The translations under genes were made by a program, and so were the position numbers. DNA of 64,000 bases from a virus (lineage: Duplodnaviria > Heunggongvirae > Uroviricota > Caudoviricetes), in IMG/VR virus record IMGVR_UViG_3300026382_000007, one strand, 5' to 3'. The notes under the pieces are model-generated. The model worked only from the letters and a program-made list of their open reading frames with translations. It had not been told where the DNA came from and did not search any database. This document shows positions 36,023 through 61,717 of this stretch, piece after piece. The stretch's first letter is position 1; every line of letters begins with the position of its first letter.

Positions 36023-36556
36023 ATGAAATTCATATTATCTGAATCTAATATAAAAGATTTGGGTGATTTGGTTGCAGATGATGCATACTTTGTATTTGTC
36101 ATGGGTGCCACGGGGTCAGGTAAAAACTTCATTGTAAGAAAATACTTACCCAAGACTCCTTTGGTGGATATAGACAAATTCATGGCTGAACTCGCGGCAA
36201 ATGACCCTGATGGGAGAAATGAACGAAAATTCATTTCTAAGTCGGTCCATATGGCAAAAAAGGCACTTGATAAATATTTCAACAAAATGCAATCTGTAAT
36301 TCAGACTGGAACTGGTGGGAATTTAAAGGGGCTTGAAAATAAGCTTAAGCTTGCAAAATCAAAGGGTTTGAAAACTGCTCTCATCTTAGTTGATACTGAC
36401 ATTGAAAGGGCTAAAAAGCGAAATCAATCCCGTGCTGACTCTGGCGAGCAAAGGCTTGTACCTCAGTGGAAAGTGGATGTTTCGTATGAAAAATCTGCTG
36501 AAAATTACAAAATTCTTAAGGACACTGTGGACTTCGCGGTTAAGGTTAAAAACTAA
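36023..36556 (+). CDS. P-loop kinase (polynucleotide 5'-kinase-like or dNMP kinase)
   Basis: Walker A VMGATGSGKN near N-terminus, D-rich segment VDIDKF downstream, 177 aa. Confidence 0.45.
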   Translation: MKFILSESNIKDLGDLVADDAYFVFVMGATGSGKNFIVRKYLPKTPLVDIDKFMAELAANDPDGRNERKFISKSVHMAKKALDKYFNKMQSVIQTGTGGNLKGLENKLKLAKSKGLKTALILVDTDIERAKKRNQSRADSGEQRLVPQWKVDVSYEKSAENYKILKDTVDFAVKVKN

Positions 36557-49942: not shown

Positions 49943-50026
49943 GGGTTTTCAAAGTCGTTCGGATACGGCAGCAAGACTGTAAATCTTGTCTCTAGGGGAG
50001 TGGTTCGAGTCCACGGGAACCCACCA
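49943..50026 (+). tRNA. tRNA-Tyr(GTA), type II, CCA encoded
   Basis: acceptor gggtttt/ggaaccc, anticodon arm caaga-ctGTAaa-tcttg, T-loop ttcgagt. Confidence 0.7.
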
Positions 50027-50032
50027 TTACAT

Positions 50033-50109
50033 CTGGATATAGCTCAGTTTGGGAGAGCACTTGCTTTGGGAGCAAGGGGTCGTAGGTTCAATCCCTACTA
50101 TTCAGACCA
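50033..50109 (+). tRNA. tRNA-Pro(TGG), CCA encoded
   Basis: acceptor ctggata/tattcag, D gctc-agtttggga-gagc, anticodon loop ttTGGga. Confidence 0.7.
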
Positions 50110-50116
50110 TTTTTAT

Positions 50117-50190
50117 TGAGGTATAGTTCAACGGCAGAACATGCGACTTTGACTCGCATAATATAGGTTCGATCCCTATTACCTCATCCA
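50117..50190 (+). tRNA. tRNA-Gln(TTG), CCA encoded
   Basis: U1-A72 acceptor tgaggta/tacctca, anticodon loop ctTTGac. Confidence 0.7.
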
Positions 50191-50191
50191 T

Positions 50192-50266
50192 CCTTGGGTA
50201 GCTCAATGGTAGAGCAGTCGGTTGATAACCGGAAGAATTGTGGTTCAATTCCACTCCTGAGGACCA
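50192..50266 (+). tRNA. tRNA-Ile(GAT), CCA encoded
   Basis: acceptor ccttggg/cctgagg, anticodon loop ttGATaa. Confidence 0.65.
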
Positions 50267-50276
50267 ATACTAATAT

Positions 50277-50351
50277 ACCACGGTCGTCTAATGGTTAGGA
50301 CACCATACTTTCAATTTGGTAACCGGAGTTCAATTCTCCGTCGTGGTACCA
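50277..50351 (+). tRNA. tRNA-Glu(TTC), CCA encoded
   Basis: acceptor accacgg/tcgtggt; anticodon loop ctTTCaa (one stem mismatch). Confidence 0.6.
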
Positions 50352-50361
50352 GAATTACAAT

Positions 50362-50437
50362 GGGGTGTTAGCTCATCTGGGAGAGCACTAGGTTTGCAAC
50401 TTAGAGGTGCAGGGTTCGAGTCCCTGACACTCCACCA
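50362..50437 (+). tRNA. tRNA-Ala(TGC), CCA encoded
   Basis: acceptor ggggtgt with G3:U70, anticodon loop ttTGCaa. Confidence 0.8.
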
Positions 50438-50479
50438 ATTTATTATTCAGCATTCAGCCCATTAATAGTGGGTTAAATG

Positions 50480-50554
50480 GTGAGTATAGTACAATGGTTA
50501 GTACGGAGGGTTGTGAACCTTCTAATTCCAGTTCAATTCTGGATACTCACACCA
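50480..50554 (+). tRNA. tRNA-His(GTG), CCA encoded (G at -1 present)
   Basis: acceptor gtgagta/tactcac perfect, anticodon loop ttGTGaa, g at 50479. Confidence 0.75.
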
Positions 50555-50555
50555 T

Positions 50556-50630
50556 GGCTCGGTCGTCTAATGGTTAGGACAACTGGTTTTCGACCAGTTA
50601 ATCAGAGTTCAATTCTCTGTCGAGTCACCA
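50556..50630 (+). tRNA. tRNA-Glu(TTC) second copy (divergent), CCA encoded
   Basis: acceptor ggctcgg/tcgagtc, perfect anticodon stem actgg/ccagt, loop ttTTCga (G37 unusual). Confidence 0.55.
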
Positions 50631-50651
50631 ATTTATTTATAAGGCTATGAC

Positions 50652-51125
50652 ATGAAAGATATGTATATGGAAGATGTTGGCAGTTTGTCAAGTGAAACAT
50701 GTGATTTTATATCTGAAAAGCTGAAACAATTTAACACACGGCTGACTGATGAACAAGTTAAGGATCTCGTTGAGAACCAAATTTGGGACGCAGTTTTTGA
50801 AAAACTAGAAAACTTTTGTGACAATGATTACAGAAGTCAAATGGGATAAGGGGGTAATGCTGAAAAGCAACATCGTGGAGGAAGAAGTAACGGTCAATAT
50901 GTTAATGACAGTTTCGGCGAAAAAGTATTTCTTCAATCTTCTTACGAACTATTATGTTCCGAGATACTGAACGAAATGGGCATATTATGGGTTAGACCAA
51001 AATCACTTCCATATGAGATAGATGGTAAAAAGAGAAAATACTTCCCTGATTTTCTCCTAGTGGATTATGGTATCTATTTAGATCCCAAAAATGATTTTTT
51101 GATTAAAAAGATATTCCTAAAATAA
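50652..51125 (+). pseudogene. Vsr/DUF559-like PD-(D/E)XK endonuclease (homing-endonuclease-like), interrupted by in-frame TAA at 50847
   Basis: ORF 50652-50849 continues in same frame after stop; downstream segment ..YEIDGKKRKYFPDFLLVDYGIYLDPK resembles Vsr motif PGRPDFVFP. Confidence 0.4.
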
Positions 51126-51194
51126 GAGCAGTAGAAGAACAAAATGATGTTTCCGTATTCATTTTATCGAAACAAAACATAACAACAGATTTCA

Positions 51195-51270
51195 TGGCGA
51201 GTATCATAATGGCTAATGACACCACCTCATAAGTGGTTCTATGCTGGTTCAAATCCAGTCTCGCCAACCA
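51195..51270 (+). tRNA. tRNA-Met/Ile2(CAT), canonical cloverleaf, CCA encoded
   Basis: acceptor tggcgag/ctcgcca, anticodon arm accac-ctCATaa-gtggt. Confidence 0.7.
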
Positions 51271-51286
51271 AACCAAAAACAAACAT

Positions 51287-51357
51287 GCCAACCGATCAGG
51301 GATCAGTCAGTGCTCATAACACAGACCAGCTTAGATCGTTACTAAGGGTTGGCACCA
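51287..51357 (+). tRNA. atypical tRNA-like (CAT) with reduced D-arm and A54..T58 T-loop (atcgtta)
   Basis: acceptor gccaacc/ggttggc + CCA; anticodon loop ctCATaa; only ~14 nt between acceptor and anticodon stem. Confidence 0.4.
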
Positions 51358-51360
51358 AAT

Positions 51361-51434
51361 GCGGACATAGTATAAAGGGATTATGGCGGTCTTCCAAACC
51401 GTGGATGCGAGTTCGAGCCTCGCTGTCCGCTCCA
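51361..51434 (+). tRNA. tRNA-Gly(TCC), CCA encoded
   Basis: acceptor gcggaca/tgtccgc, anticodon arm gcggt-ctTCCaa-accgt. Confidence 0.65.
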
Positions 51435-51439
51435 AACAT

Positions 51440-51514
51440 ACTCGGTTATTTCAGTGGTAGAATGTCTCCCTTACAAGGAGGAGGTCGTTGGTTCGAGTCC
51501 AACACCGAGTACCA
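51440..51514 (+). tRNA. tRNA-Val(TAC), CCA encoded
   Basis: acceptor actcggt/accgagt, anticodon loop ctTACaa. Confidence 0.65.
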
Positions 51515-51528
51515 AACACAACAAACAT

Positions 51529-51604
51529 GCTCTTCTAGCTTATGTGGTACAAGCATCGGTTTGAAGAACCGAGGATTGAAGTTCAACTCTTCAGGGGAGC
51601 ACCA
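51529..51604 (+). tRNA. tRNA-Phe(GAA), CCA encoded
   Basis: acceptor gctcttc/ggggagc, D gctt..aagc, anticodon arm tcggt-ttGAAga-accga. Confidence 0.75.
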
Positions 51605-51736
51605 TATTTTAATTATAAAGGAATTATCATGAGAGATAAGGATAATAGAAAAATCACACAATCAAAAAAGTCGTACGATCGCAAGAAAGTACAAAAACAT
51701 CGTTGGCAGGATTAACATTCAATTAATCCAAAATAT

Positions 51737-51811
51737 ATGCATGTAGCTCAGAGGCAGAGCAATGGTCTCCAAAACCATAGGTCGAGATTTCGAAATTCTC
51801 CATGTATGCCA
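51737..51811 (+). tRNA. tRNA-Trp(CCA), CCA encoded
   Basis: A1-U72 acceptor atgcatg/catgtat, discriminator G, anticodon arm atggt-ctCCAaa-accat. Confidence 0.7.
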
Positions 51812-51813
51812 AT

Positions 51814-51885
51814 GCCCAAACTGACGGATTCAGACTCGAGGTTTCGACCCTTGATGTCAAGGTTCAACTCCTTGTTTGGGCTCCA
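51814..51885 (+). tRNA. tRNA-Arg(TCG)-like with short non-canonical D-arm, CCA encoded
   Basis: acceptor gcccaaa/tttgggc perfect; anticodon arm cgagg-ttTCGac-ccttg; D region only 16 nt. Confidence 0.5.
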
Positions 51886-51979
51886 CTTCAATTTACACAA
51901 TCAAAAACAAACTCAATTATCATCATTAAATATCGTCATAATATACAAAGTTCCCTGAGAAAACTCATAACTAAAATTT

Positions 51980-52005
51980 AAGAAAACTCCTGTATAATAG
52001 TAATG
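51980..52005 (+). promoter_or_regulatory. extended -10 promoter (TGnTATAAT)
   Basis: ctcctgTATAATag at 51991-51998 upstream of 52037 gene. Confidence 0.4.
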
Positions 52006-52036
52006 TTTATAACAGGATTTCCGAACAGAGGCGAAT

Positions 52037-52219
52037 ATGACAATTAAGTTCATACACAATAGAAAAACAGTTTTAGAATACACGGTTGCTAACTTAAGCG
52101 ATCCAATTGTTCCAAAAAAACACGACCAACTAGATATTGATGGTCAAAACATGGTTATTGTTGATTTTTCAGCATTCCAAGATTTAGTAGTATTCAAGGT
52201 GGAAACATGCGAAAAATAA
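52037..52219 (+). CDS. hypothetical small protein
   Basis: 60 aa; upstream TGnTATAAT promoter at 51991-51998. Confidence 0.35.
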   Translation: MTIKFIHNRKTVLEYTVANLSDPIVPKKHDQLDIDGQNMVIVDFSAFQDLVVFKVETCEK

Positions 52220-52683
52220 CACACATAATAGTTCATGAAAGTGACTCAGGATGGGGTGATGCCTCGGCTATAAATAGTTGGCATTTAGATAGAGGCTGGA
52301 ATGGTATTGGATATCACAAGGTTATCTTGAACGGAAAAAGAACCTCAAAATCAAAATATAAAGAGTCTGAAGATGGTATCATTGAGTGTGGTAGGATGCT
52401 ACATTTGAGTGGTGCTCATGCAAGAGGTTATAACAAACAATCAATTGGATTGTGTCTGATCGGAAAACATGGTAAATTCACGAGCTTACAAATGAGTACT
52501 TTAATGGATGAAATAGTCAGGCTAATGGGTGCTTATGATATCCCTACATCGAATGTATTGGGCCACTATGAAATTCCTCTTAGTGGTGGAAAAACTTGTC
52601 CGGAAATTGATATGATGATTTTCAGAAATGAATTGCAAATGAGACTTGATGCTCTTGATGCAATGAACAAATTTGGAGCATAA
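52207..52683 (+). CDS. N-acetylmuramoyl-L-alanine amidase (T7 lysozyme / PGRP family) - candidate endolysin
   Basis: IIVHESD..GYHKVI..GAHARGYNKQSIGLCLIG..HYEI..KTCPE aligns with T7 lysozyme zinc ligands and catalytic residues. Confidence 0.8.
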   Translation: MRKITHIIVHESDSGWGDASAINSWHLDRGWNGIGYHKVILNGKRTSKSKYKESEDGIIECGRMLHLSGAHARGYNKQSIGLCLIGKHGKFTSLQMSTLMDEIVRLMGAYDIPTSNVLGHYEIPLSGGKTCPEIDMMIFRNELQMRLDALDAMNKFGA

Positions 52684-52684
52684 C

Positions 52685-53239
52685 ATGTTAAAAAACACAA
52701 CAATAATTATTCAAGCACATAAGGTGATTGAACCTACATTATCTCAGGCACTAGCTATTTGCCCAAATGTCATAATTTTTAATGACAAGGCGAAATTTAA
52801 ACATGATTCGGCAACAGTTGTGAGAGGAAGAGGGTTTTCTGGAAAATATGAAGATGCATATGAAATGTGTTTACCATTAGTGCAAACAGAATTTGTTTGT
52901 AGAATAAATGGTGGAGATGAGATTTTGGATCTTCAGGAGCCAACTGGTGACATTTGGCTCGCTAGATATAATAAAGATCACCCAGACCATAAAATGGACA
53001 AAGATTATTTTAAACATGCTGGTGCTTCTATTATAAGTGGTTCAGTAATAAAAACTGAAATTATGAAAGATCTTCTTGATGGGTACACTGTTGAAAATAA
53101 GGCGAAGTGGGGAAAATTTGGAAAATATTGTGGTGATATAATTTTGAATTCAGAATTCAAAATTTCACAAGCTGAGACTCAAAGCCTAGATTTCACATTC
53201 AAAATGTGGGGTTCAAGAGAAAATTCATATAAAGTATAA
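52685..53239 (+). CDS. hypothetical protein
   Basis: RBS ggagcataacATG. Confidence 0.35.
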   Translation: MLKNTTIIIQAHKVIEPTLSQALAICPNVIIFNDKAKFKHDSATVVRGRGFSGKYEDAYEMCLPLVQTEFVCRINGGDEILDLQEPTGDIWLARYNKDHPDHKMDKDYFKHAGASIISGSVIKTEIMKDLLDGYTVENKAKWGKFGKYCGDIILNSEFKISQAETQSLDFTFKMWGSRENSYKV

Positions 53240-53466
53240 GAATTTTGTAATTCTTTTTGTGAAAAGGGGGTTTTGCTCCCTTCAACCATTAAATAGAAGT
53301 ATAAATAACAACAAGGAACTAAGATGAAGTCTGATAAAAGACCCACTTTAAGCTGTAATTTGAATTCGCTGAATTCGGATATGATTAAACTTTAGTTCAC
53401 CCTCTATCTCAGGGTGAACATTCACTCTGGGAGCAATTTTTAAATTCCCCCAAATTTCTTATCAAT

Positions 53467-53512
53467 CTTAAGTAAGCTCTAAGCTAACTTTAGGTATAAT
53501 ATACTATATGAA
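53467..53512 (+). promoter_or_regulatory. conserved promoter cassette (no obvious CDS downstream)
   Basis: aagtaagctctaagctaactttaggTATAATatactatatg; -10 53495-53500. Confidence 0.5.
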
Positions 53513-53563
53513 AAGTAAATGGTTATTCCGCTTCTTTTTATCGTTCTTTAAAGTTTATATGAT

Positions 53564-53608
53564 CTTTAAGCTGACTCTAAGTTAGTTTACGGTATAATAT
53601 AGGTAACG
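53564..53608 (+). promoter_or_regulatory. conserved promoter cassette copy (ctgactctaagttagtttacgg form) 1 of 3
   Basis: tttaagctgactctaagttagtttacggTATAATataggt; -10 53593-53598. Confidence 0.5.
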
Positions 53609-53679
53609 AAAGTTAAGTAACACGAATGAAGATTACAAAGGTTTATTTACCTTTGACTTAACTTTTAAATCTATCAAAG

Positions 53680-53724
53680 CTTTAAGCTGACTCTAAGTTA
53701 GTTTACGGTATAATATAGGTATCT
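53680..53724 (+). promoter_or_regulatory. conserved promoter cassette copy 2 of 3 (identical 38-mer)
   Basis: -10 53709-53714. Confidence 0.5.
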
Positions 53725-53863
53725 TAATAAGATGATAAGGTTTGTAAGGTGACTAAAGAGGTTCGAATCCTCCCTTGATTTTCAAGAGATTTTAAATGTT
53801 GGAAAAGTTGCCTCAACTCAGGTTCGAATCCTGACATTTTATTAAGTTTCAAATCTTTCAAAA

Positions 53864-53908
53864 CTTTAAGCTGACTCTAAGTTAGTTTACGGTATAATAT
53901 AGGATAAA
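53864..53908 (+). promoter_or_regulatory. conserved promoter cassette copy 3 of 3 driving GC-rich noncoding region
   Basis: -10 53893-53898. Confidence 0.5.
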
Positions 53909-54280
53909 CTCTTTAATCAGGGCATCGATAAGCGGTCTAAGTCTTTTGACTGTGACCGCAACACGGTGTCTTTATTAAAGAGTTTAGTGTTTAGCTGACA
54001 CGACACTCTGAGTTTTGAAGTCAGAACCTTGGGAATGTAGCATAGAGGTAAATGTAACTGCCGTGGAGGCAGAGAAGAGGGATCGTTACCCTCCTTTCTC
54101 TACAAGGGTTTTGAGTGAAAAATGTTGATCTTTTCGAGCACACTAGTCACTGCTCGAAAACTCAACATGAACGAATAGAAAGTCACTGTGCTGGGATCAC
54201 CTGGATTTCAGTGAAACTTCTAACCGAGTTTGCAAGGTAGCACCTTGCGACTCAATGAATTACGAAATTTATTATATGAT

Positions 54281-54325
54281 TAAGCTTCTTTTAAGGAAGT
54301 TTACAGTATAATAACGGTAACTTAA
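54281..54325 (+). promoter_or_regulatory. promoter variant inside noncoding region
   Basis: aagcttcttttaaggaagtttacagTATAATaacggtaactt; -10 54307-54312. Confidence 0.4.
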
Positions 54326-55805
54326 AAGGAAACTATAAGAACTTCATTAAGTTCATATCGGCATCCAGGGATAGTGTCTACTGCAAAGTATCGGCATCCG
54401 TGGCTAGTGTTTATGAATTTAATGAAGTGCTTAGTACATAATGTCTGGCTTGGTTGTAGGTTTGCCCTATGTCAACGAAGACAAAGTGGAACGGGATTTC
54501 CGGACGCATATATTCGTAAAGATACTCTCAGTAATGGGACGAAAGGGGGATTGATAATCCTTCGCGGAAGTAATTCCGAACAAGTATGCAAAACAGAAAA
54601 CTCATTAAGACATCATCACGGTGGTGTTCGAATTGAACGATGAAGTACGAACTAAACAGTCTGGCCAACGGTGACACTGTTTGATCCCGCAAGGATCTAG
54701 TACATGCAAAATTCATAAGAAATGACAAGTTTAATCTGTAGTTCATTGGTCCGAGTCGTAACTGGCAAGGGCTTATGTTCAGTCTACATGAAAAAAGTCG
54801 CAAGGCTGAGTATCGTGATGGACGGTGAAAGTAGTGTGTTGCATGAAATCACAAAAGGTGGGAAGCATTCTGAGGCTCAAAAGGCTTTGGAACTTCTGAG
54901 GGAGCCCATCTTTATCAATCCGTAATAGCTTAAAGATAAGCATTTGTATTTGGCACAAAAGATTCAGGGTCATACCTGATTACTAATAAAAAACGCAAAG
55001 TCTCCCTCACCGTCACTTGAAAGTGGCTTAAGTCTACACCCATAATGTGGGAATGAAGACATGTTGATGCTCGCAAGGCGGATATATGTTTAGTGGAAAG
55101 CAAAGTTATCCGGCTCGCACTGGAGAATGGCTCGCAAGGTCAGACTGAGTAGAACATTAGAGTAGAGTGACGGGATGCAAGAAAAGCTACTTGTTGGCGA
55201 AAGCCTAAACAAAAGCAGTCATTGGAAATACTCGACCGAAAGGATGAGTGGATAACACTGGGAAACAATAATCCAGTCAAAGGTTCCAGCTGAAAGCTAT
55301 AATCTCAGGCTTCAAAATAAACTTTAAGAGTTTATTGAAATAAATTTGTGTAGCAGTGTTCGACTCCCGACCCACACAGAGTGGGTATTAAACGGGCAAC
55401 TGTTATTGGCACTGGTGTGGGATCACGAGGATTATGAAAAGAATAATCGCAAATTTATTTCAATAAGTTCTTAATTTACTCAAAATGAAGAATGGAATGT
55501 AGGCTTATCAAGTTGAAAGTGTGAGAACTGGATGTGGAATTGGCTTATGAAACTAGAAGAAATTGTTTCTAACGAAAGTACGGATGAATGAATGAATATG
55601 AGATGCAAATTGGGTTTACCAGATAATTCTCTCCGGAACTCTTAGTAGAAAAGAACATCACTGAGGTTGTATATTCAGTGATTGACTTTCAAACTTTTAT
55701 TATATGCTTTGAATGGGTCAGAAGATAATGATGGAGGGTGCGCACCTGAAGTCAGTGATGATATGACAAATCACTTTGAAAATGATAATATTTAAGTTTT
55801 CAGAA

Positions 55806-55837
55806 GTGGTGAGGTTCGATCCCTCACCTTTGCACCA
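55806..55837 (+). ncRNA. tRNA 3'-half-like element (T-arm + acceptor 3' strand + CCA) with no matching 5' half nearby
   Basis: tgagg-ttcgatc-cctca then cctttgc-a-cca; no gcaaagg-type 5' partner found within 100 nt. Confidence 0.3.
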
Positions 55838-55851
55838 ACAAATTTTAAATG

Positions 55852-55924
55852 TGCGGGGAACAGCGGATGTAATTTGGGCTCATAACCCAGACCCTGTGGG
55901 TTCAACTCCCACCCACCGCAACCA
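55852..55924 (+). tRNA. atypical initiator-like tRNA(CAT) with reduced D-arm
   Basis: anticodon stem with three consecutive G-C pairs (ttggg/cccag), loop ctCATaa, T-arm gtggg-ttcaact-cccac, CCA; acceptor tgcgggg/caccgca with one mismatch. Confidence 0.4.
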
Positions 55925-55929
55925 AATAT

Positions 55930-56006
55930 TGTATACGATTTCTCCAGGCGAGAAAGCTTGACTGTTAATCAAGAAGTGACTGGTTCGAGTCCAGTGTATA
56001 CAGCCA
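55930..56006 (+). tRNA. tRNA-Asn(GTT), CCA encoded
   Basis: acceptor tgtatac/gtataca perfect, D tttc..gaaa, anticodon arm cttga-ctGTTaa-tcaag. Confidence 0.75.
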
Positions 56007-56021
56007 AACAACTTAAATTTA

Positions 56022-56101
56022 AGAACTCTGTCCTTGATCGGGATTAATATGGTACGAGCGGAAATGATCATCCGTGGACTGTTCGACTCAGTCGAGTTCT
56101 T
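56022..56101 (+). ncRNA. tRNA-like element, 80 nt, no CCA, fold unresolved
   Basis: perfect 7-bp acceptor agaactc/gagttct and T-arm gactg-ttcgact-cagtc; internal arms not assignable by eye. Confidence 0.3.
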
Positions 56102-56350
56102 AAATTTGGGTTGATTACCTGAAGAGTCGCTATTGTTTTCGACTCAAAAAATACACAAACACGATAGTAAGTGATCGATACACACCACTGTTGGCATATC
56201 GCACAGACGATGCAGCGAGTTCCGGCTACACAGGGCAGAGGGAAACATCTAGAAGGTTTCATCGCAATTGTACATTGTGCGATTAACAAACTAAAATGAG
56301 CAAAAACTCGACCCACTTAAAGATTTAATCAATCTCGGGTCGTTTCAAGT

Positions 56351-56427
56351 GGCCTACTAACTCAATTGGCTAGAGTGTCTCGTTGTCTGCGAGAAGGTTA
56401 TCGGTTCGAGTCCGATGTGGGTCGCCA
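56351..56427 (+). tRNA. tRNA-Asp(GTC), CCA encoded (U37 unusual)
   Basis: acceptor ggcctac/gtgggtc, D actc..gagt, anticodon arm tctcg-ttGTCtg-cgaga. Confidence 0.55.
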
Positions 56428-56935
56428 TTTTCAAAATTGAATAAAGTAACTAACTAGAGTGGGAATGCTTGGATTGAGTTCTAGCACATACCTTAATAAT
56501 GTTCTCGCATCCTTGATTTAGCGATCACGGGACAAGTACACATGCTCCTCTATGATACAATATGCATCACTTGTATCATAAATGTTTGTTATTTTATTCA
56601 GTCTTGCAAGAATAAACTGAAGTGTCGGAATATCAAGAACTGCACTATAAAGTACGATTATCTGGTGAGATGCATACTGCTGAACCTACTCTAAAAGGGT
56701 TATGGCACCAATGGAAGATCATTCTGGACGGCTCCAGACACAGACTTGAAATCTGTAGGCATTTTAAAAGCAGTGTGGGGATCGACACCTCGTTCTTCCT
56801 CCATTTTAAATATAAACATAAGGAAATACAATGAAAACGACAAAATTAACGAAAACGACAAAACTTACAGACACATCTGAAAGAGATAGTTAGGTAAAAC
56901 TAGCTATGGGGTGTGTCTTTAATAAAAATAAAGAT

Positions 56936-57010
56936 GCATCCGAAGCTTAGTTGGCGAAGCACACGACTTTTAATCGTGGGAACAGAGTTCGATTCTCTGC
57001 GGTTGCACCA
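56936..57010 (+). tRNA. tRNA-Lys(TTT), CCA encoded
   Basis: acceptor gcatccg/cggttgc (one mismatch), anticodon arm cacga-ctTTTaa-tcgtg. Confidence 0.65.
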
Positions 57011-57018
57011 TTCAATGT

Positions 57019-57094
57019 GGATGTGTAACTCAATTGGCAGAGTACTCGGCTTTTAACCGAGAGGTTGTGGGATCATTGCCCACCGCATCCACCA
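57019..57094 (+). tRNA. tRNA-Lys(TTT) second divergent copy with A54..T58 T-loop (atcattg)
   Basis: acceptor ggatgtg/cgcatcc, anticodon arm ctcgg-ctTTTaa-ccgag. Confidence 0.55.
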
Positions 57095-57095
57095 T

Positions 57096-57170
57096 GCTTA
57101 ATTAGTATAGTGGCGATTATCCTCGTTTTGTAATCGAGGGACAGGTGTTCGATTCACCTATTAAGCTCCA
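57096..57170 (+). tRNA. tRNA-Thr(TGT), CCA encoded
   Basis: acceptor gcttaat/attaagc perfect; anticodon loop ttTGTaa; weak D-stem. Confidence 0.55.
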
Positions 57171-57182
57171 AATTTTTAAAAT

Positions 57183-57259
57183 GCCGGATTAGCTCCAACT
57201 GGAAGAGCATTTCACTTGTAATGAAAGGGCTATCTGTTCGAATCAGATATCCGGCACCA
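57183..57259 (+). tRNA. tRNA-Thr(TGT) second copy, CCA encoded
   Basis: acceptor gccggat/atccggc perfect, D gctc..gagc, anticodon arm tttca-ctTGTaa-tgaaa. Confidence 0.7.
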
Positions 57260-57744
57260 TTTATAGTATAAAGAACATTTTGGTGATTTTTGTACTGTTA
57301 AATGTTCACACTAAATCAAAAACAATGGTAGGGTAAATGAGTATGCATGCTTCCGCTCATCAGTCCAGAAAATTGAGAAGTGTAAAAAGGTCTATTGTAG
57401 CCTCAGAACCTTGAAAGGGAGAGGGAATATGCCTTGGAGATATCCAAAAGCTTTTTGGCGAAAATTTGTGCAAAACAAAATCCGCTCCAATCAACTCAAT
57501 TATATACAAGGGATTTTATAACAGTCACCTGATCTTGTATATAATTGAGCGGATTTCGACCTAAATGATTGCCTCCGACTTCAACAAGACAAAGGCTCAA
57601 GAAAATCATTTGTTAGGGTTGTGCCCATCTTACACGGTTCTTGTTCCGGTGTAGGCTCTGGGGAACTCTCTGAGTCGTCCGCTCCAACAAACGACTGCCC
57701 TCTATTTGAACTTATTGTAAGGTCATTCAACGGTGGTTTTTTAT

Positions 57745-57831
57745 GCTTCTCTGGTGGAATTGGTATACACGGTGGTCTTAGAAACCACTGCTCGAAAGGG
57801 CTTCCGAGTTCGAGTCTCGGGGGAAGCACCA
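57745..57831 (+). tRNA. tRNA-Leu(TAG), type II, CCA encoded
   Basis: acceptor gcttctc/gggaagc, anticodon arm gtggt-ctTAGaa-accac, variable hairpin gctc-gaaa-gggc. Confidence 0.7.
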
Positions 57832-57865
57832 TAATTTTTATTATAAACTAAAACAAGGAAGGCAA

Positions 57866-57979
57866 ATGTCGCACATAAATGCAAAAATTGCTGAACTTGA
57901 GAAAGACGGTAAACGAGAAAACATAGATTTTCGTATAGTATATTTTTCAGAATCAGCAGAATTAAAAATGTTGAAATAA
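57866..57979 (+). CDS. small protein (37 aa), below the ORF-track cutoff
   Basis: RBS aaggaaggcaaATG; MSHINAKIAELEKDGKRENIDFRIVYFSESAELKMLK. Confidence 0.25.
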   Translation: MSHINAKIAELEKDGKRENIDFRIVYFSESAELKMLK

Positions 57980-58103
57980 CAAAATTCAAAAAAGGAGTCA
58001 CGAATGTTGACAAGGTTAAGATCATTATCAAGATGTTTATGTTTAAGATTATTGTCAATTCGTGATGGATTGAGTTGTAGCTAAACTGCTATAATTTCAA
58101 TTC

Positions 58104-58189
58104 GGATAGTGCAAGCAAGGTGCTTAAGGTGGTTGCTAACCACTGGGGTGTAAACAGCCTGATGGGTTCAATTCCCATACTATCCTCCA
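58104..58189 (+). tRNA. tRNA-Ser(GCT), type II, CCA encoded
   Basis: acceptor ggatagt/actatcc perfect, anticodon arm ggtgg-ttGCTaa-ccact, long variable arm. Confidence 0.65.
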
Positions 58190-58280
58190 TCTTCAATTAG
58201 TACATTCAGTACAACCTTCAAAAACACAAACACTTTATTATTCATTCACAAATTTACTTGGTTATTCAAGCAACACATAT

Positions 58281-58367
58281 GCTCTCATGGTGGAATTGGC
58301 ATACACAATGGACTTAAAATCCATGGCTCGGAAGGGCTTCTCGGTTCAAATCCGAGTGGGAGCACCA
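58281..58367 (+). tRNA. tRNA-Leu(TAA), type II, CCA encoded (no intron)
   Basis: acceptor gctctca/tgggagc, anticodon arm atgga-ctTAAaa-tccat, variable hairpin gctc-ggaa-gggc. Confidence 0.7.
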
Positions 58368-58381
58368 TACTAAACAAATGT

Positions 58382-58457
58382 GCCGATGTACTTCAACGGA
58401 TAGAAATTCCGACTTCTAATCGGAAAGTTGGGGGTTCAAGCCCCTCCATCGGTACCA
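58382..58457 (+). tRNA. tRNA-Arg(TCT), CCA encoded
   Basis: acceptor gccgatg/catcggt, anticodon arm tccga-ctTCTaa-tcgga. Confidence 0.65.
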
Positions 58458-58458
58458 T

Positions 58459-58533
58459 GTATGATTGGCCAAATGGTAAGGCACGGGATTGCAAATCCTG
58501 AGATTGTCAGTTCGAGTCTGACATCATGCTCCA
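58459..58533 (+). tRNA. tRNA-Cys(GCA), CCA encoded
   Basis: acceptor gtatgat/atcatgc, anticodon arm cggga-ttGCAaa-tcctg. Confidence 0.65.
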
Positions 58534-58567: not shown

Positions 58568-59095
58568 ATGAACAAATTAGAATTCAATGAAGAAAACTTC
58601 GACATGTTAGTCGAGAGGATGCACTTCCTCAGGGAAGAAGTTAAAAAATACAAATATGACCATTTAACTGGTTTAAAACTCAGAAAAGATTTTGATGAGA
58701 AGCTTGATAGGATGTATGAAGCTTATGAATTTGAAGATCAACCATTTGTTTTCATTATGGCAGATGCTGATGGTCTACACAATACTAATAGGACTCTAGG
58801 TTATGATGCTGGTGATGAGCTTCTTATAACTATATCGAGTGAGCTCCGTGCGGAGTTCGGTGATTGTAGAAATGTTGATATATTTCGAATATCCGGCGAC
58901 GAATTTGCGGTTTTGATGACTGGTGATTTGTGTGGCGATGCAATTGACGAAAAAATGAAAAATGTCACAAGTTGCTCATATGCATCAGTCTTCATGGATG
59001 AGACTGAATGTCATCCAAGCCCATCATCTGTTTTTAAGTGTGCTGATAAAAAACTCACTGAAGTAAAGAAAACTAAAAAGCCTGAAAGAATTTAA
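58568..59095 (+). CDS. GGDEF-domain protein (diguanylate-cyclase-like, SGDEF variant)
   Basis: DHLTGL, FVFIMADADGLHNTNRTLGYDAGDELL and RISGDEFAVLM align with PleD-type GGDEF core (DQLTGL / LIDIDFFKKIND..GDEVL / RYGGEEFVVIM). Confidence 0.65.
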   Translation: MNKLEFNEENFDMLVERMHFLREEVKKYKYDHLTGLKLRKDFDEKLDRMYEAYEFEDQPFVFIMADADGLHNTNRTLGYDAGDELLITISSELRAEFGDCRNVDIFRISGDEFAVLMTGDLCGDAIDEKMKNVTSCSYASVFMDETECHPSPSSVFKCADKKLTEVKKTKKPERI

Positions 59096-59858: not shown

Positions 59859-60137
59859 ATGAGACCACTCGGATTTAAAGTAATTATAGAAAAGAAAACG
59901 GTGCAAGCGGAACAAACTTCCGGAACACTTATTATTGAACTTGAAAAGTCAACTTCAGATGCTGACGATGTTAGTGAGGGAACTGTAATTTCAGTAGGAA
60001 ATGAAGTAAACTCTGTGATACATATGATAGATGTTGGTGATACCGTGAAATATGAAAATCATGGTGGGTATGAAGTGAATATTGACGGTAAAGACCTGAT
60101 TATAGCTGATATCAAAAACATTCTGGTGGTATTATAA
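59859..60137 (+). CDS. groES: co-chaperonin GroES/gp31-like
   Basis: 92 aa; MRPLGFKVIIEK..GTVISVG..VGDTVKY pattern parallels GroES; immediately upstream of GroEL with ATGA overlap. Confidence 0.6.
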   Translation: MRPLGFKVIIEKKTVQAEQTSGTLIIELEKSTSDADDVSEGTVISVGNEVNSVIHMIDVGDTVKYENHGGYEVNIDGKDLIIADIKNILVVL

Positions 60138-61717
60138 TGAAAGATATTTTATATGGTTCAGAAGCGAGAGAACTTCTACAAGTTGGTGTTAATAAATTAG
60201 CAAAGGCGGTTGCGGTGACTATGGGACCTCTTGGTCGTAATGTTCTAATTCAGAGGGATAATGAAAATCCATTTCTCACCAAGGACGGTGTTACGGTAGC
60301 TGGTGAAGTTCAATTGAAGAATCCAGTTGAAAATATGGCAGCAAGTCTAGTGAAAGAAGTTTCATCAAATACGGCATTCGAAGCTGGTGATGGTACGACT
60401 ACATCTACTGTTTTAACTGATGCAATTTTCACACACGGTGTTGATGGCATCAAAAGTTCAACGAATATCGTTGAAATGAAAAAGGGTATGGATTCAGCGG
60501 TTCGTGAGGTTGTAAGCTACATTGAAATGAATAGTCGTAAGATTACATCTCATGAAGAAATTAAGCAAATTGCTACTATTTCAGCGAATTCAGATGTTCC
60601 TATGGGTCAGATGATTGCGGATGCTATGGAAGCTGTTGGTGAAGACGGGATTATCAATATCGAAGAAAATAACGGTGTGACGGATGAACTTGCCTCAACT
60701 AAGGGCTTCAAATTCAATCGTGGTTACATGAGTCCAAACTTCGTGACAAATCCTGGTAAAGAAATTGCTGAACATGAAAATCCTTTCATTTTAGTAACTG
60801 ATCAGCGAATTGGCCATTTAGCACACATATTACCTATTCTACAAAAGGTTCAGGAAACTGCAAGACCACTTATAATTTTAGCGGATGACTTTGACCCTGA
60901 AGCACTTAACACAGTTGTAGTGAATAAGGTTCGTGGTATCATGAATATGACGGTTGTAAAGTTACCAGGGTTTGGTGACGGAAAACGAGATCAGATGATT
61001 GACATTGCTATGACTTCAGGTGCTACTATTGTTGGTGCTGAAACTGGTCGTACATTTGAGTCACTGACTTTAGAAGATCTCGGTGAAGCGAAGCGAGTTG
61101 TAGTTGAGAAACAGAATACTATTATCATCAACGGAAAGGGATCAAGTACTGAAGAAATTACTCAGCATAAAAATGCCTTAAAAGTACAAATTGAAGCACT
61201 CCCAGATGGTGATGCTAAAGTGTCTCTTAAATCTAGATTATCCCGCCTTTCAGGTGCAGCAGCAGTTATCAGAGTTGGTGCTCAGACTGAACTTGAAATG
61301 AGAGAAAAGAAAGATAGATTTGATGATGCGGTTGCGGCAACAAAAGCAGCAGTGGCTGAGGGTATTGTTATTGGTGGTGGTTCTGCTTTGGCTAGGGCTT
61401 CACATTTCATCAAAGTGAATAGACAATCAACCAGTTCTGATTTTGACAAAGGGTTCGATGTGATTCTTGAAGCATGTTTTGCTCCTATAGAACAAATTGC
61501 AAATAATGCTGGTCGTAACGGCATTGAGATCGTTGGTGATCTTTCTGAACATGAGAATGAAAACTTCGGTTGGAATGCTCTTACTGATACTTATGAAGAT
61601 TTATTTGAATCAGGTGTCATCGATCCGCTCAAAGTGACTAGAATTGCAATAATCAATGCTTGTAGTTGTGCTTCTACTCTTTTAACTACTGAAACGGTAA
61701 TTTATACAGAAGATTAA
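60137..61717 (+). CDS. groEL: chaperonin GroEL (Cpn60)
   Basis: AVAVTMGPLGRNVLI..FEAGDGTTTSTVLT..equatorial domain motifs, 526 aa. Confidence 0.85.
   Translation: MKDILYGSEARELLQVGVNKLAKAVAVTMGPLGRNVLIQRDNENPFLTKDGVTVAGEVQLKNPVENMAASLVKEVSSNTAFEAGDGTTTSTVLTDAIFTHGVDGIKSSTNIVEMKKGMDSAVREVVSYIEMNSRKITSHEEIKQIATISANSDVPMGQMIADAMEAVGEDGIINIEENNGVTDELASTKGFKFNRGYMSPNFVTNPGKEIAEHENPFILVTDQRIGHLAHILPILQKVQETARPLIILADDFDPEALNTVVVNKVRGIMNMTVVKLPGFGDGKRDQMIDIAMTSGATIVGAETGRTFESLTLEDLGEAKRVVVEKQNTIIINGKGSSTEEITQHKNALKVQIEALPDGDAKVSLKSRLSRLSGAAAVIRVGAQTELEMREKKDRFDDAVAATKAAVAEGIVIGGGSALARASHFIKVNRQSTSSDFDKGFDVILEACFAPIEQIANNAGRNGIEIVGDLSEHENENFGWNALTDTYEDLFESGVIDPLKVTRIAIINACSCASTLLTTETVIYTED

What the first reader, a model, noticed from the sequence alone, without database searches (positions are those of the whole stretch)
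51287..55924. Three CAT-anticodon tRNAs: one canonical and two with drastically reduced D-arms, one of them initiator-like
The 51195-51270 gene is a normal cloverleaf. The 51287-51357 and 55852-55924 loci share the identical anticodon loop ctCATaa, have intact T-arms, acceptor stems and CCA, but leave only ~14-15 nt where 8,9 + D-arm + 26 should be. The 55852 species has three consecutive G-C pairs closing the anticodon stem (ttggg/cccag), the hallmark of initiator tRNA. Bacteria need three CAU tRNAs (fMet, Met, Ile2-lysidine), so the phage may supply all three, two of them in a D-arm-minimised format. Alternatively these are decaying pseudogenes.
Basis: partly seen in the sequence, partly recalled or inferred. 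Interest (0 to 1): 0.6.

Follow-up and report, generated by a model that had tools for sequence, protein, structure and literature searches.

The report
Phage Met tRNAs with shrunken D-arms
An uncultured phage carries a full set of tRNA genes in which the two methionine tRNAs and one arginine tRNA have an unusually compact core, kept intact by compensating mutations in a related phage, so these are real genes of a shape so far described mainly in mitochondria and for pyrrolysine tRNA.

Summary
There are three CAT-anticodon tRNA genes on the + strand. CAT1 (51195-51270) is canonical. CAT2 (51287-51357) and CAT3 (55852-55924) have only 14 and 15 nt between the acceptor and anticodon stems, against 18-22 nt in the other tRNAs of the array.

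They are not pseudogenes. A related phage contig (L041, amidase 72% identical) carries both orthologs. They are 76% and 81% identical, like the canonical tRNAs. Every stem substitution keeps pairing: 5 and 4 pairs changed on both sides.

Shared architecture:
- 0-1 nt connector between acceptor and D stem
- 3-bp D stem
- 5-nt D loop that keeps GG
- 6-7 bp anticodon stem
- 3-4 nt variable loop

This is the compact core known from tRNAPyl and mitochondrial tRNASer(UCN).

CAT3 belongs to a phage-specific initiator-like family (G2-C71, C3-G70, A73) with a bulged A in the acceptor stem. Relatives carry tRNA-Ile(UAU) where the window has CAT1. The 28 genes form a minimal 25-species decoding set. The likely roles are therefore CAT1 = tRNAIle2, CAT2 = elongator Met, CAT3 = initiator. 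These roles are inferred, not shown. A GOLLD RNA lies inside the span.

The parts
51195..51270 (+). CAT1: canonical 76-nt tRNA with anticodon CAU. Acceptor is U1-A72, G2-C71, G3-C70, C4-G69; discriminator A73, CCA encoded. Probable tRNAIle2, which would need host TilS to make lysidine.
   Evidence: ARAGORN and Rfam tRNA at 55.1 bits. The positional counterparts in L041 and L061 are tRNA-Ile(UAU). C4-G69 and C29-G41 are shared with the Ile tRNAs (PMC9976931).
51287..51357 (+). CAT2: 71-nt compact-core tRNA(CAU). Layout: acceptor GCCAACC/GGTTGGC, no 8-9 connector, D stem GAU/AUC with loop CAGGG, 1-nt linker, 7-position anticodon stem with one A.A mismatch, 3-nt variable loop, T arm CTTAG-ATCGTTA-CTAAG, A73, CCA. 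Probable elongator tRNAMet.
   Evidence: ARAGORN mitochondrial mode only; no Rfam tRNA hit. The MFE fold is the cloverleaf. The ortholog L041 9092-9162 shows 5 pairs changed on both sides, with 97.7% of cells paired. Related genes L061 390-463 and L060 106-178 score 43 and 39.5 bits with model R2.
51814..51885 (+). tRNA-Arg(UCG), 72 nt, with the same compact core. There is no 8-9 connector. D stem CTGA/TCAG, 5-nt loop CGGAT, linker AC, 6-bp anticodon stem, 3-nt variable loop.
   Evidence: ARAGORN places the anticodon at position 31. Rfam scores only 30.3 bits. Sequence. The ortholog L041 9601-9673 (anticodon ACG) has compensatory acceptor changes and the same D arm with a 6-nt loop. The L036 homolog is canonical.
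55852..55924 (+). CAT3: 73-nt compact-core, initiator-like tRNA(CAU). Acceptor is U1-A72, G2-C71, C3-G70, G4-C69, G5-C68, a bulged A, then G6-C and G7-C. It continues with connector A8, D stem ACA/UGU, loop GCGGA, linker AA, a 6-bp anticodon stem with GGG/CCC, 4-nt variable loop, canonical T arm, A73 and CCA.
   Evidence: The ortholog L041 13259-13331 shows 4 pairs changed on both sides, two of them in the D stem. In a 9-member bulged-A family 96% of cells pair and 8 pairs change on both sides.
56713..56803 (+). tRNA-Ser(UGA), missed by standard ARAGORN. It completes the 25-species set.
   Evidence: ARAGORN at a lowered threshold. The Rfam tRNA-Sec model scores 43.9 bits at 56713-56799. L041 has tRNA-Ser(tga) at the same position in the array.
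49943..58533 (+). The tRNA array that holds these genes. It has 28 tRNA genes, all on the + strand and all with encoded CCA, and 23 different anticodons. With CAT used three ways this gives 25 species, a minimal complete decoding set. The array is interrupted by two ORFs (one an amidase) and a block of non-coding RNA.
   Evidence: No UAU-anticodon tRNA was found in the region.

Best explanation
CAT2 and CAT3, and also tRNA-Arg(UCG), are functional phage tRNA genes. Their D-arm region has been compacted into the architecture known from tRNAPyl and mitochondrial tRNASer(UCN):
- 0-1 nt between the acceptor and D stems
- a 3-4 bp D stem
- a 5-nt D loop that keeps the GG needed to dock on the T loop
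- an anticodon stem lengthened to 6-7 bp
- a 3-4 nt variable loop

They sit in a 28-gene array that gives the phage a minimal, complete decoding set.

Likely mechanism (inferred):
1. The array is transcribed as polycistronic precursors.
2. Host RNase P and 3' trimming release each tRNA with its encoded CCA.
3. Host MetRS charges CAT2 and CAT3 through the CAU anticodon and A73.
4. CAT3 serves as initiator. It descends from a phage-specific initiator-like family with G2-C71, C3-G70, A73, a weak or absent 1-72 pair and a bulged A in the acceptor stem, and it carries GGG/CCC in the anticodon stem. It is probably formylated by the host.
5. CAT2 reads internal AUG.
6. The canonical CAT1 is converted by host TilS to a lysidine tRNAIle2 that reads AUA.

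Shown here: the genes exist, and their cloverleaf, anticodon and 3' end are under purifying selection.
Inferred: expression, charging identity, formylation, lysidine, and the reason for compaction. One possible reason is escape from host factors that read the D-arm or elbow. Another is relaxed constraint, as in mitochondria.
For: Structure and conservation:
- Against L041, CAT2 has 5 pairs changed on both sides and 97.7% of cells paired.
- CAT3 has 4 such pairs, two in the mini D stem, and 95.2% of cells paired.
- Partners slid by 1-3 columns drop to 29-52% paired.
- MFE folds give the same cloverleaf in both phages.
- Identity to the orthologs is 76% and 81%, against 66-90% for the canonical tRNAs.
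- Arg(UCG) has the same core and is conserved with compensatory acceptor changes.

Initiator ancestry of CAT3:
- In a 9-sequence family, G2-C71 and C3-G70 are invariant. Position 1-72 is U-A in 4 members and a mismatch in 5. The bulged A is conserved. A G7-C to C7-G swap in L001 supports the bulge reading.
- Members with normal D arms include L077 and Rhizobium phage RHph_Y65, which have C1.A72. L077 also carries GGG/CCC in the anticodon stem; RHph_Y65 has CTGGA/TCCAG.

Role assignment:
- L041 and L061 have tRNA-Ile(UAU) where the window has CAT1.
- L041 has only two CAT stem-loops in its array.
- The window has no UAU tRNA.
- AUA is 15.3 per 1000 codons.
- Determinants listed in PMC9976931 fit: CAT1 has C4-G69 and C29-G41, CAT2 has A5-U68, and CAT3 has G2-C71 and C3-G70.

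Architecture:
- It matches the tRNAPyl and mt-tRNASer(UCN) description in PMC7609411.
Against: - There is no RNA-level evidence of any kind.
- Only one diverged ortholog exists for each compact gene. L042 and L043 appear identical to L041 in the regions aligned here. The covariation therefore rests on two sequences per gene, and 12-38 of 500 shuffles reach the observed values.
- CAT3 has a Watson-Crick U1-A72 pair rather than the bacterial initiator mismatch.
- The middle G-C of the anticodon stem is G.U in L041, and the run is absent in L001.
- CAT1 has A12-U23 rather than U12-A23.
- CAT2 has A4-U69 where E. coli tRNAMet has U4-A69.
- The identity rules used are those of E. coli, and the host is unknown.
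- The window copy of CAT2 has an unusual T loop (AUCGUUA) and an A.A mismatch in the anticodon stem.
- Whether bacterial EF-Tu, MetRS, Fmt and the ribosome accept this core is untested for these sequences.
Confidence: 0.62

Rival explanations
1. Decaying tRNA pseudogenes or gene fragments left in the array.
For: Standard ARAGORN misses CAT2. The Rfam tRNA model misses CAT2 and hits CAT3 only at threshold and in a wrong register. Window CAT2 has an A.A mismatch and a non-canonical T loop. Mis-called tRNA fragments are a known problem in prokaryote annotation (PMC9897764, listed).
Against: All stem differences from L041 keep or improve pairing; the A.A mismatch becomes G.U. There are 9 pairs changed on both sides across the two genes. 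The anticodon, A73 and CCA are invariant. Conservation equals that of the canonical tRNAs, while the flanking spacers are hardly alignable.
Confidence: 0.03
2. Structured tRNA-like RNAs that are not used in decoding. They could be decoys or sponges for host tRNA-targeting nucleases or toxins, processing punctuation for the array, or cargo or partners of the neighbouring GOLLD RNA cage.
For: A GOLLD RNA (224 bits) and several tRNA-like pieces without CCA lie between the two loci. The GOLLD literature links it to tRNA islands and to tRNAs in its linker (PMC12286853). Phage tRNAs have been proposed to counter tRNA-cleaving defences (PMC10264068). The core is unusual for a bacterial translation system.
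Against: The anticodon loop, discriminator and CCA are conserved exactly as needed for charging. Without CAT2 and CAT3 the otherwise complete set would lack both Met functions. tRNAPyl, with the same core, is reported to use the normal translation machinery (PMC7609411).
Confidence: 0.13
3. They are functional tRNAs but with other roles. For example, CAT1 could be the elongator tRNAMet and CAT2 the lysidine tRNAIle2. Alternatively CAT3 could act as an elongator, with the host supplying the initiator.
For: The identity rules come from E. coli and the host is unknown. CAT1 lacks U12-A23 and CAT2 lacks U4-A69. CAT3 has a paired 1-72, and the G-C run is not conserved in L041 or L001. CAT1-like genes (acceptor UGG...CCA-ACCA) also occur in L036 and L001, where no UAU tRNA was seen in the part fetched.
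Against: If CAT2 were Ile2, then L041 would have two AUA decoders and no elongator Met in its array. CAT3 shares its acceptor end with family members that have the full initiator signature: L077 has C1.A72 and GGG/CCC, and RHph_Y65 has C1.A72.
Confidence: 0.17

Closest known systems
Compact-core tRNAs: archaeal and bacterial tRNAPyl, and mammalian mitochondrial tRNASer(UCN) (type I mt-tRNA)
   Same: One nucleotide between the acceptor and D stems, or none as in M. alvus tRNAPyl. A D loop of 4-5 nt. An anticodon stem of 6 bp. A variable loop of about 3 nt. Normal 7/5 acceptor and T helices. As in mt-tRNASer(UCN), G18, G19 and the T loop are kept (PMC7609411; sequences).
   Different: The anticodons and identities differ (Met initiator, Met elongator, Arg). 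The genes are phage-encoded in a bacterial-type tRNA array with encoded CCA. The D stem is 3 bp in the Met pair. CAT3 has a 4-nt variable loop and a bulged A in the acceptor stem. There is no sequence homology, so the likeness is convergent: relatives of the same genes have normal D arms.
Bacterial initiator tRNAfMet, and phage-encoded initiator-like tRNA-Met genes such as those of Rhizobium phage RHph_Y65 and Enterococcus phage EFDG1
   Same: CAT3 has G2-C71, C3-G70, G4-C69, A73 and GGG/CCC closing the anticodon stem. It shares the ...CC-A-CCGCA-ACCA acceptor end with the phage genes.
   Different: CAT3 has U1-A72 instead of a C1.A72 mismatch. Its D arm is cut from 4 bp with a loop of 8-10 nt to 3 bp with a 5-nt loop. 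The 8-9 connector is reduced to one A. The bulged A is absent from E. coli-type initiators. Its 3'-end pattern has only 2 hits in 185,579 bacterial species genomes.
tRNAIle2 (lysidine, CAU) and tRNAIle(UAU) as alternative AUA decoders
   Same: CAT1 occupies the array position where relatives carry tRNA-Ile(UAU). It has A73, C4-G69, C29-G41, A37 and A38. The UAU solution is known from Mycoplasma mobile (PMC3575796, listed).
   Different: CAT1 is not sequence-similar to the UAU tRNAs (61% identity). It has A12-U23. No TilS is encoded in the window, so it would depend on the host enzyme.
D-armless mitochondrial tRNAs, such as mt-tRNASer(GCU) and nematode mt-tRNAs
   Same: The region between the acceptor and anticodon stems is shortened. 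Standard bacterial tRNA finders fail and the mitochondrial mode of ARAGORN succeeds.
   Different: The connector here is 14-16 nt and a real D hairpin is supported by covariation. D-armless tRNAs have 5-12 nt and no D stem (PMC4394434).

Membership tests
Canonical tRNA (Rfam RF00005 cloverleaf) | 7-bp acceptor stem, discriminator base and 3' CCA | tested here: met
   CAT2 has 7 Watson-Crick pairs, A73 and CCA. CAT3 has 7 pairs plus one bulged A, A73 and CCA.
Canonical tRNA (Rfam RF00005 cloverleaf) | Anticodon arm with a 5-bp stem and a 7-nt loop carrying U33 and a purine at 37 | tested here: met
   The loop is CUCAUAA in both genes. The stems are supported by changes on both sides and are extended to 6-7 bp.
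Canonical tRNA (Rfam RF00005 cloverleaf) | Two-nucleotide connector (U8, N9), a 4-bp D stem (3 bp in type II tRNAs) and a D loop of about 7-11 nt | tested here: not met
   CAT2 has no connector, a 3-bp stem and a 5-nt loop. CAT3 has the connector A8, a 3-bp stem and a 5-nt loop. The total is 14 and 15 nt against 18-22 nt in the other array tRNAs.
Canonical tRNA (Rfam RF00005 cloverleaf) | Score at or above the Rfam gathering threshold of 29 bits | tested here: not met
   CAT2 has no hit at E<=10. CAT3 reaches 29.8 bits only in a register (55863-55920) that deletes the D arm and is not conserved in L041.
Bacterial initiator tRNA | No Watson-Crick pair at 1-72 | tested here: not met
   CAT3 and its L041 ortholog have U1-A72. 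Five of nine family members have C.A or A.A.
Bacterial initiator tRNA | Three consecutive G-C pairs at 29-41, 30-40 and 31-39 | tested here: inconclusive
   Present in the window. L041 has G-C, G.U, G-C. L001 lacks the run. L077 has it.
Bacterial initiator tRNA | G2-C71, C3-G70 and A73, the E. coli MetRS/initiator determinants | tested here: met
   Invariant in all 9 family members. The determinant list is from PMC9976931.
Bacterial initiator tRNA | Formylation by Fmt and use in the P site at initiation | not testable with these tools
   This needs biochemistry. No Fmt gene was found among the window ORFs.
tRNAIle2 (lysidine) | CAU anticodon with the Ile determinants A73, C4-G69, C29-G41, A37 and A38 | tested here: met
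   CAT1 has all of these. CAT2 and CAT3 lack C4-G69 and C29-G41 (list).
tRNAIle2 (lysidine) | U12-A23 pair in the D stem | tested here: not met
   CAT1 has A12-U23.
tRNAIle2 (lysidine) | C34 converted to lysidine by TilS | not testable with these tools
   No TilS domain was found in any window ORF of 150 aa or more. The rest of the 155-kb contig was not seen.
Compact-core tRNA (tRNAPyl / mt-tRNASer(UCN) type), as an architecture and not a homologous family | 0-1 nt between the acceptor and D stems, and a D loop of 5 nt or less | tested here: met
   Met by CAT2, CAT3 and Arg(UCG). Two pairs of the CAT3 D stem change on both sides.
Compact-core tRNA (tRNAPyl / mt-tRNASer(UCN) type), as an architecture and not a homologous family | Anticodon stem of 6 bp and a variable loop of about 3 nt | tested here: met
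   In CAT2 the 7th pair, G-C to A-U, changes on both sides and the variable loop is 3 nt. In Arg the 6th pair is U-A or U.G and the variable loop is 3 nt. In CAT3 the 6th pair U-A does not vary and the variable loop is 4 nt.
tRNA pseudogene or fragment | Substitutions accumulate without regard to pairing; anticodon and 3' end drift | tested here: not met
   95-98% of cells are paired and 9 pairs change on both sides. CAT, A73 and CCA are invariant.

The most novel reading that the evidence does not exclude
A lineage of uncultured T4-like phages has independently evolved the tRNAPyl / mitochondrial-tRNASer(UCN) compact core in three of its own tRNAs: initiator Met, elongator Met and Arg. These tRNAs work with an ordinary bacterial translation apparatus. 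The remodelled D-arm and elbow, together with the phage-specific bulged A in the initiator acceptor stem and the A54..U58 T loops, would be adaptive. They would make these tRNAs invisible to host factors that recognise the canonical tRNA core, such as tRNA-targeting defence nucleases, toxins or modification enzymes, while aminoacylation continues through the anticodon and acceptor end.
Probability: 0.3. Interest if true: 0.8.

Novelty: new variant of a known kind. Interest (0 to 1): 0.6.

Why it matters
Phage and bacterial tRNAs are generally treated as canonical cloverleaves. The review of non-canonical natural tRNAs read here (PMC7609411) never mentions phages.

- The compact core appears here in phage Met and Arg tRNAs and is conserved by compensatory change. 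That suggests the shape is reachable, and probably usable, outside mitochondria and the pyrrolysine system.
- Standard annotation misses such genes. Rfam missed CAT2 and mis-registered CAT3; ARAGORN missed CAT2 and called CAT3 with a forced 8-bp acceptor stem starting 2 nt too far upstream. Phage tRNA repertoires are therefore under-counted.
- The genes offer natural test cases for what MetRS, Fmt, EF-Tu, IF2/IF3 and the ribosome need from the D-arm.
- They may be useful scaffolds for orthogonal tRNAs.
- The system bears on the idea that phage tRNAs are shaped by host tRNA-targeting defences, now at the level of tRNA architecture rather than anticodon-loop point changes.

Tried and rejected
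Registers and folds rejected:
- ARAGORN's CAT3 register (55850-55924, 8-bp acceptor with two mismatches) and Rfam's register (55863-55920, no D arm). Neither pairs in L041.
- ARAGORN-mt's CAT2 D stem (UCA/UCA with a C.C mismatch). The A-to-U change in L041 would break it. The GAU/AUC stem is invariant and the variable positions fall in loops.
- Reading CAT3's acceptor as a G6.A67 mismatch plus an extra C. The bulged-A reading is favoured by the MFE fold and by the G7-C to C7-G swap in L001.

Searches for relatives that gave nothing useful:
- Megablast and blastn against GenBank phages found no relatives of the region. CAT1 had no hit at all. CAT3 hit only the 3' two-thirds of other phage tRNA-Met genes.
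- The 188-aa ORF has no relatives in IMG/VR.
- IMG/VR pattern scans for CAT2, its 3' end and the Arg D arm found only chance matches.
- The JGI metagenome pattern scan found nothing, not even the window's own sequence.
- GroEL relatives in IMG/VR are 53% identical at most, and only L001 and L036 carry comparable tRNAs.
- L062-L064 do not cover the loci.

Other checks:
- No phage-encoded TilS, Fmt or MetRS was found in the window ORFs.
- No missed UAU-anticodon tRNA was found in the window.
- Literature searches for phage tRNAs with reduced D arms found no prior description.

Full report
**What is there**

ARAGORN finds 26 tRNA genes between 49943 and 58533, all on the + strand. Two of them have a CAT anticodon: 51195-51270 and 55850-55924. 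A permissive Rfam scan of the region also misses it, as does an 88-nt scan at E<=10.

At the third locus the Rfam tRNA model reaches 29.8 bits against a gathering score of 29. It does so only by starting at 55863 and deleting the whole D arm. ARAGORN forces an 8-bp acceptor stem with two mismatches.

Read directly, both odd loci have:
- anticodon loop CTCATAA on a 5-bp stem
- a 5-bp T stem with a 7-nt loop
- a 7-bp acceptor stem
- discriminator A and an encoded CCA
- only 14 nt (CAT2) or 15 nt (CAT3) between the acceptor and anticodon stems

For the other tRNAs of the array, ARAGORN's anticodon positions give 18-22 nt.

**Source and relatives**

- The window is part of a 154.9-kb ENA metagenome contig. 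Copies from two samples are identical.
- It has T4-like baseplate genes, ribonucleotide reductase, GroES/GroEL, a flagellin and a GGDEF protein.
- No cultured phage is close. Megablast found nothing, and the large baseplate protein is under 30% identical to anything in GenBank phages.
- The closest cellular GroEL sequences are from Campylobacterota, at about 52% identity. This is only a lead to the host.
- The amidase gene inside the array (52207-52683) has a 72% identical homolog (P0002). It lies on a syntenic 21-kb contig, L041, with partial copies L042 and L043 from other samples.
- More distant relatives are L060 and L061 (amidase 62-64% identical) and L001 and L036 (GroEL 51-53% identical).

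**Real genes or remnants?**

L041 carries orthologs of both odd genes at the same array positions.

CAT2, 71 aligned columns without gaps:
- The acceptor pair 7-66 changes C-G to U-A.
- The anticodon stem changes CAGUG/CACAG to CGUAA/UUAUG.
- A further pair outside the stem changes G-C to A-U.
- The A.A mismatch of the window becomes G.U.
- In all, 5 pairs change on both sides and 97.7% of cells pair. With partners slid by 1-3 columns only 29-43% pair.

CAT3, 73 columns:
- Acceptor pair 4-69 changes G-C to A-U.
- Two of the three D-stem pairs change A-U to G-C.
- T-stem pair 51-63 changes G-C to U-A.
- One anticodon-stem pair becomes G.U.
- In all, 4 pairs change on both sides and 95.2% of cells pair.

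Other points:
- Anticodon, A73 and CCA do not change.
- Identity to the ortholog is 76% and 81%. For the canonical tRNAs of the two arrays it is 66-90%.
- The spacers around them barely align.
- Minimum-free-energy folding of each single sequence returns the same mini-D cloverleaf.

With two sequences per gene the shuffle controls are weak: 12-38 of 500 shuffles reach the observed values. The pattern is nevertheless what purifying selection on a cloverleaf produces, and the opposite of decay. The pseudogene reading is rejected.

**Architecture**

| Feature | CAT3 | CAT2 |
|---|---|---|
| Acceptor stem | U1-A72, G2-C71, C3-G70, G4-C69, G5-C68, bulged A, G6-C, G7-C | GCCAACC/GGUUGGC |
| Connector to D stem | one A | none |
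| D stem | ACA/UGU | GAU/AUC |
| D loop | GCGGA | CAGGG |
| Linker to anticodon stem | AA | one A |
| Anticodon stem | 6 bp, closing GGG/CCC | 7 positions |
| Variable loop | 4 nt | 3 nt |
| T arm | canonical | loop AUCGUUA in the window, canonical UUCAAUU in L041 |

tRNA-Arg(UCG) at 51814-51885 is built the same way. It has no connector, D stem CUGA/UCAG, loop CGGAU, linker AC, a 6-bp anticodon stem and a 3-nt variable loop. It is conserved in L041, where the anticodon is ACG and the acceptor stem shows compensatory changes.

This combination is the compact core described for tRNAPyl and mammalian mitochondrial tRNASer(UCN): zero or one connector nucleotide, a 5-nt D loop, a lengthened anticodon stem and a short variable loop. 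As in the mitochondrial case, G18, G19 and the T loop are kept (PMC7609411). In the scheme of PMC4394434, connectors of 14-16 nt lie at or below those of the atypical mitochondrial classes (16-20 nt). They lie above those of D-armless tRNAs (5-12 nt).

Homologs of the same genes in more distant phages have ordinary D arms: the L036 Arg tRNA, and L071-L077 for the CAT3 family. L060 and L061 are intermediate. The compaction therefore arose within this lineage and is convergent with the known examples.

**What the three CAT tRNAs do (inference)**

1. *Completeness of the set.* Adding CAT2 and a tRNA-Ser(UGA) at 56713-56803 gives 28 genes with 23 different anticodons. There is one U34 tRNA per four-codon box, one G34 and one U34 tRNA per split box, then Trp and CAT. 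By standard wobble rules every sense codon is covered except AUA, unless one CAT tRNA is tRNAIle2. Both Met functions need a CAT tRNA. AUA makes up 15.3 per 1000 codons in the window's ORFs. No UAU-anticodon tRNA is hidden in the region.
2. *Relatives carry tRNA-Ile(UAU).* It sits in L041 at the position of CAT1 and is also present in L061. L041 then has only two CAT genes, the orthologs of CAT2 and CAT3. The simplest reading is that CAT1 is the AUA decoder.
3. *Identity determinants.* Against the E. coli determinants listed in PMC9976931, CAT1 shares A73, C4-G69 and C29-G41 with the phage Ile tRNAs. CAT2 has A5-U68 of elongator tRNAMet. CAT3 has G2-C71, C3-G70 and A73 of the initiator.
4. *CAT3 belongs to a wider family.* The 3' end ...CC-A-CCGCA-ACCA recurs in five IMG/VR contigs, one MAG contig and cultured phages: Rhizobium phage RHph_Y65, and with a variant Enterococcus phage EFDG1. 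In nine aligned members G2-C71 and C3-G70 are invariant. Position 1-72 is a mismatch in five and U-A in four. 96% of cells pair, and 8 pairs change on both sides. L077 combines C1.A72, GGG/CCC and a normal D arm. The same 3'-end pattern occurs only twice in 185,579 bacterial species genomes, so this is a phage trait.

CAT3 is thus a compacted descendant of a phage initiator-like tRNA.

Points that weaken the role assignment:
- U1-A72 is paired in CAT3.
- The middle G-C is G.U in L041.
- CAT1 has A12-U23.
- The identity rules are borrowed from E. coli.

No TilS, Fmt or MetRS is encoded in the window. The tRNAs would therefore rely on host enzymes, unless such genes lie in the part of the contig not seen here.

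**Rivals**

- *Non-decoding, tRNA-like role* (decoy, processing signal, partner of the GOLLD RNA). This cannot be excluded without RNA data. It is made less likely by the exact conservation of the features needed for charging and by the gap the set would have without these genes.
- *A swap of roles among the three.* This remains possible.

**Novelty**

The genes are tRNAs, and the compact core is known elsewhere. I found no description of this core in phage or bacterial Met or Arg tRNAs (searches; PMC7609411 does not mention phages). The standard tools miss or mis-register them. I rate it a new variant of a known kind, of moderate to high interest to tRNA and phage biologists. The main gap is the lack of any expression or charging evidence.

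Noticed in passing
window 54853-55311 (+); probable 5' part from about 54320: A GOLLD RNA (Rfam RF02032, 224 bits, E 6e-63, full model) lies inside the finding's span, between the two tRNA blocks. A tRNA-like fold sits inside it at 54918-54988 (Rfam tRNA 33 bits, no CCA). GOLLD is known to sit near phage tRNA islands and to form a 14-mer cage (PMC12286853).
   Followed up: partly
window 53542-53603, 53658-53719, 53842-53903, 54256-54317 (+): Four copies of a 62-nt repeat carry a good sigma-70-like promoter (CTGACT, 16 nt, TATAAT). Each precedes a short non-coding stretch. Two of these stretches hold T-arm-like hairpins (GGTTCGAATCC at about 53760 and 53818-53834). The last copy precedes the GOLLD region. 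This looks like a battery of small phage RNAs.
   Followed up: no
window 54031-54101 (+): A tRNA-like cloverleaf (Rfam tRNA 31.6 bits; ARAGORN at a low threshold calls 'Pro(tgg)'). It has no CCA, an odd anticodon loop CGUGGAG, and the same unusual T loop AUCGUUA as CAT2.
   Followed up: no
window 51335-51341, 56775-56781 (approximate), 57069-57075 (approximate), 54082-54088: T loops with A at position 54 and U at 58, the reverse of the usual T54-A58 pair, occur in four places. They are CAT2 (AUCGUUA), tRNA-Ser(UGA) (AUCGACA), the second tRNA-Lys (AUCAUUG) and the tRNA-like element at 54031. L061 has a similar GGAGGATCGTTACCTC hairpin. The L041 CAT2 ortholog has a normal UUCAAUU loop.
   Followed up: no
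window about 55736-55838 (+): A predicted four-way junction has a canonical T arm (GUGAGG-UUCGAUC-CCUCAC). It ends in ...UUUGCACCA only 13 nt upstream of CAT3. Its 'anticodon' arm is long and AU-rich. It is not conserved in L041.
   Followed up: partly
L071, L072, L074, L075, L076 (IMG/VR); L077 (MAG contig); L087 (Rhizobium phage RHph_Y65); L089 (Enterococcus phage EFDG1); window 55913-55920: [quoted passage not shown] The pattern is almost absent from bacterial genomes, with 2 hits in 185,579 species. I found no description of it.
   Followed up: partly
L041 9000-9073 and L061 80-154: Relatives carry tRNA-Ile(UAU). The L041 copy has C33 (loop CCUAUAA), and ARAGORN miscalls it as Tyr(ata).
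   Followed up: partly
L001 6653-6741: An 89-nt tRNA with a long variable arm, a Ser-like D loop and a CAU anticodon. Its acceptor stem (UGGCAGG) resembles that of CAT1. It could place a different amino acid at AUG or AUA.
   Followed up: no
L061 390-463 and L060 106-178: A further CAT-anticodon tRNA sits directly after tRNA-Gly and is not called by ARAGORN. It has a 6-bp acceptor stem plus a G.A mismatch, no 8-9 connector and a 7-bp anticodon stem. Compensatory change is visible between the two contigs (A5-U68 to U5-A68).
   Followed up: partly
window 51814-51885 versus L041 9601-9673 and L061 1603-1676: The compact tRNA-Arg switches anticodon between UCG (window) and ACG (relatives).
   Followed up: no
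window 45013-45837 (-), 58568-59095, 59859-61717, 36023-36556 and 37122-38525: The phage encodes a flagellin (the only long minus-strand ORF), a GGDEF domain protein and GroES/GroEL. It also has a P-loop kinase (AAA_33/Zeta) about 0.6 kb upstream of an ATP-dependent ligase that shows a weak PNKP-ligase match. That pair could be an RNA or tRNA repair system.
   Followed up: no
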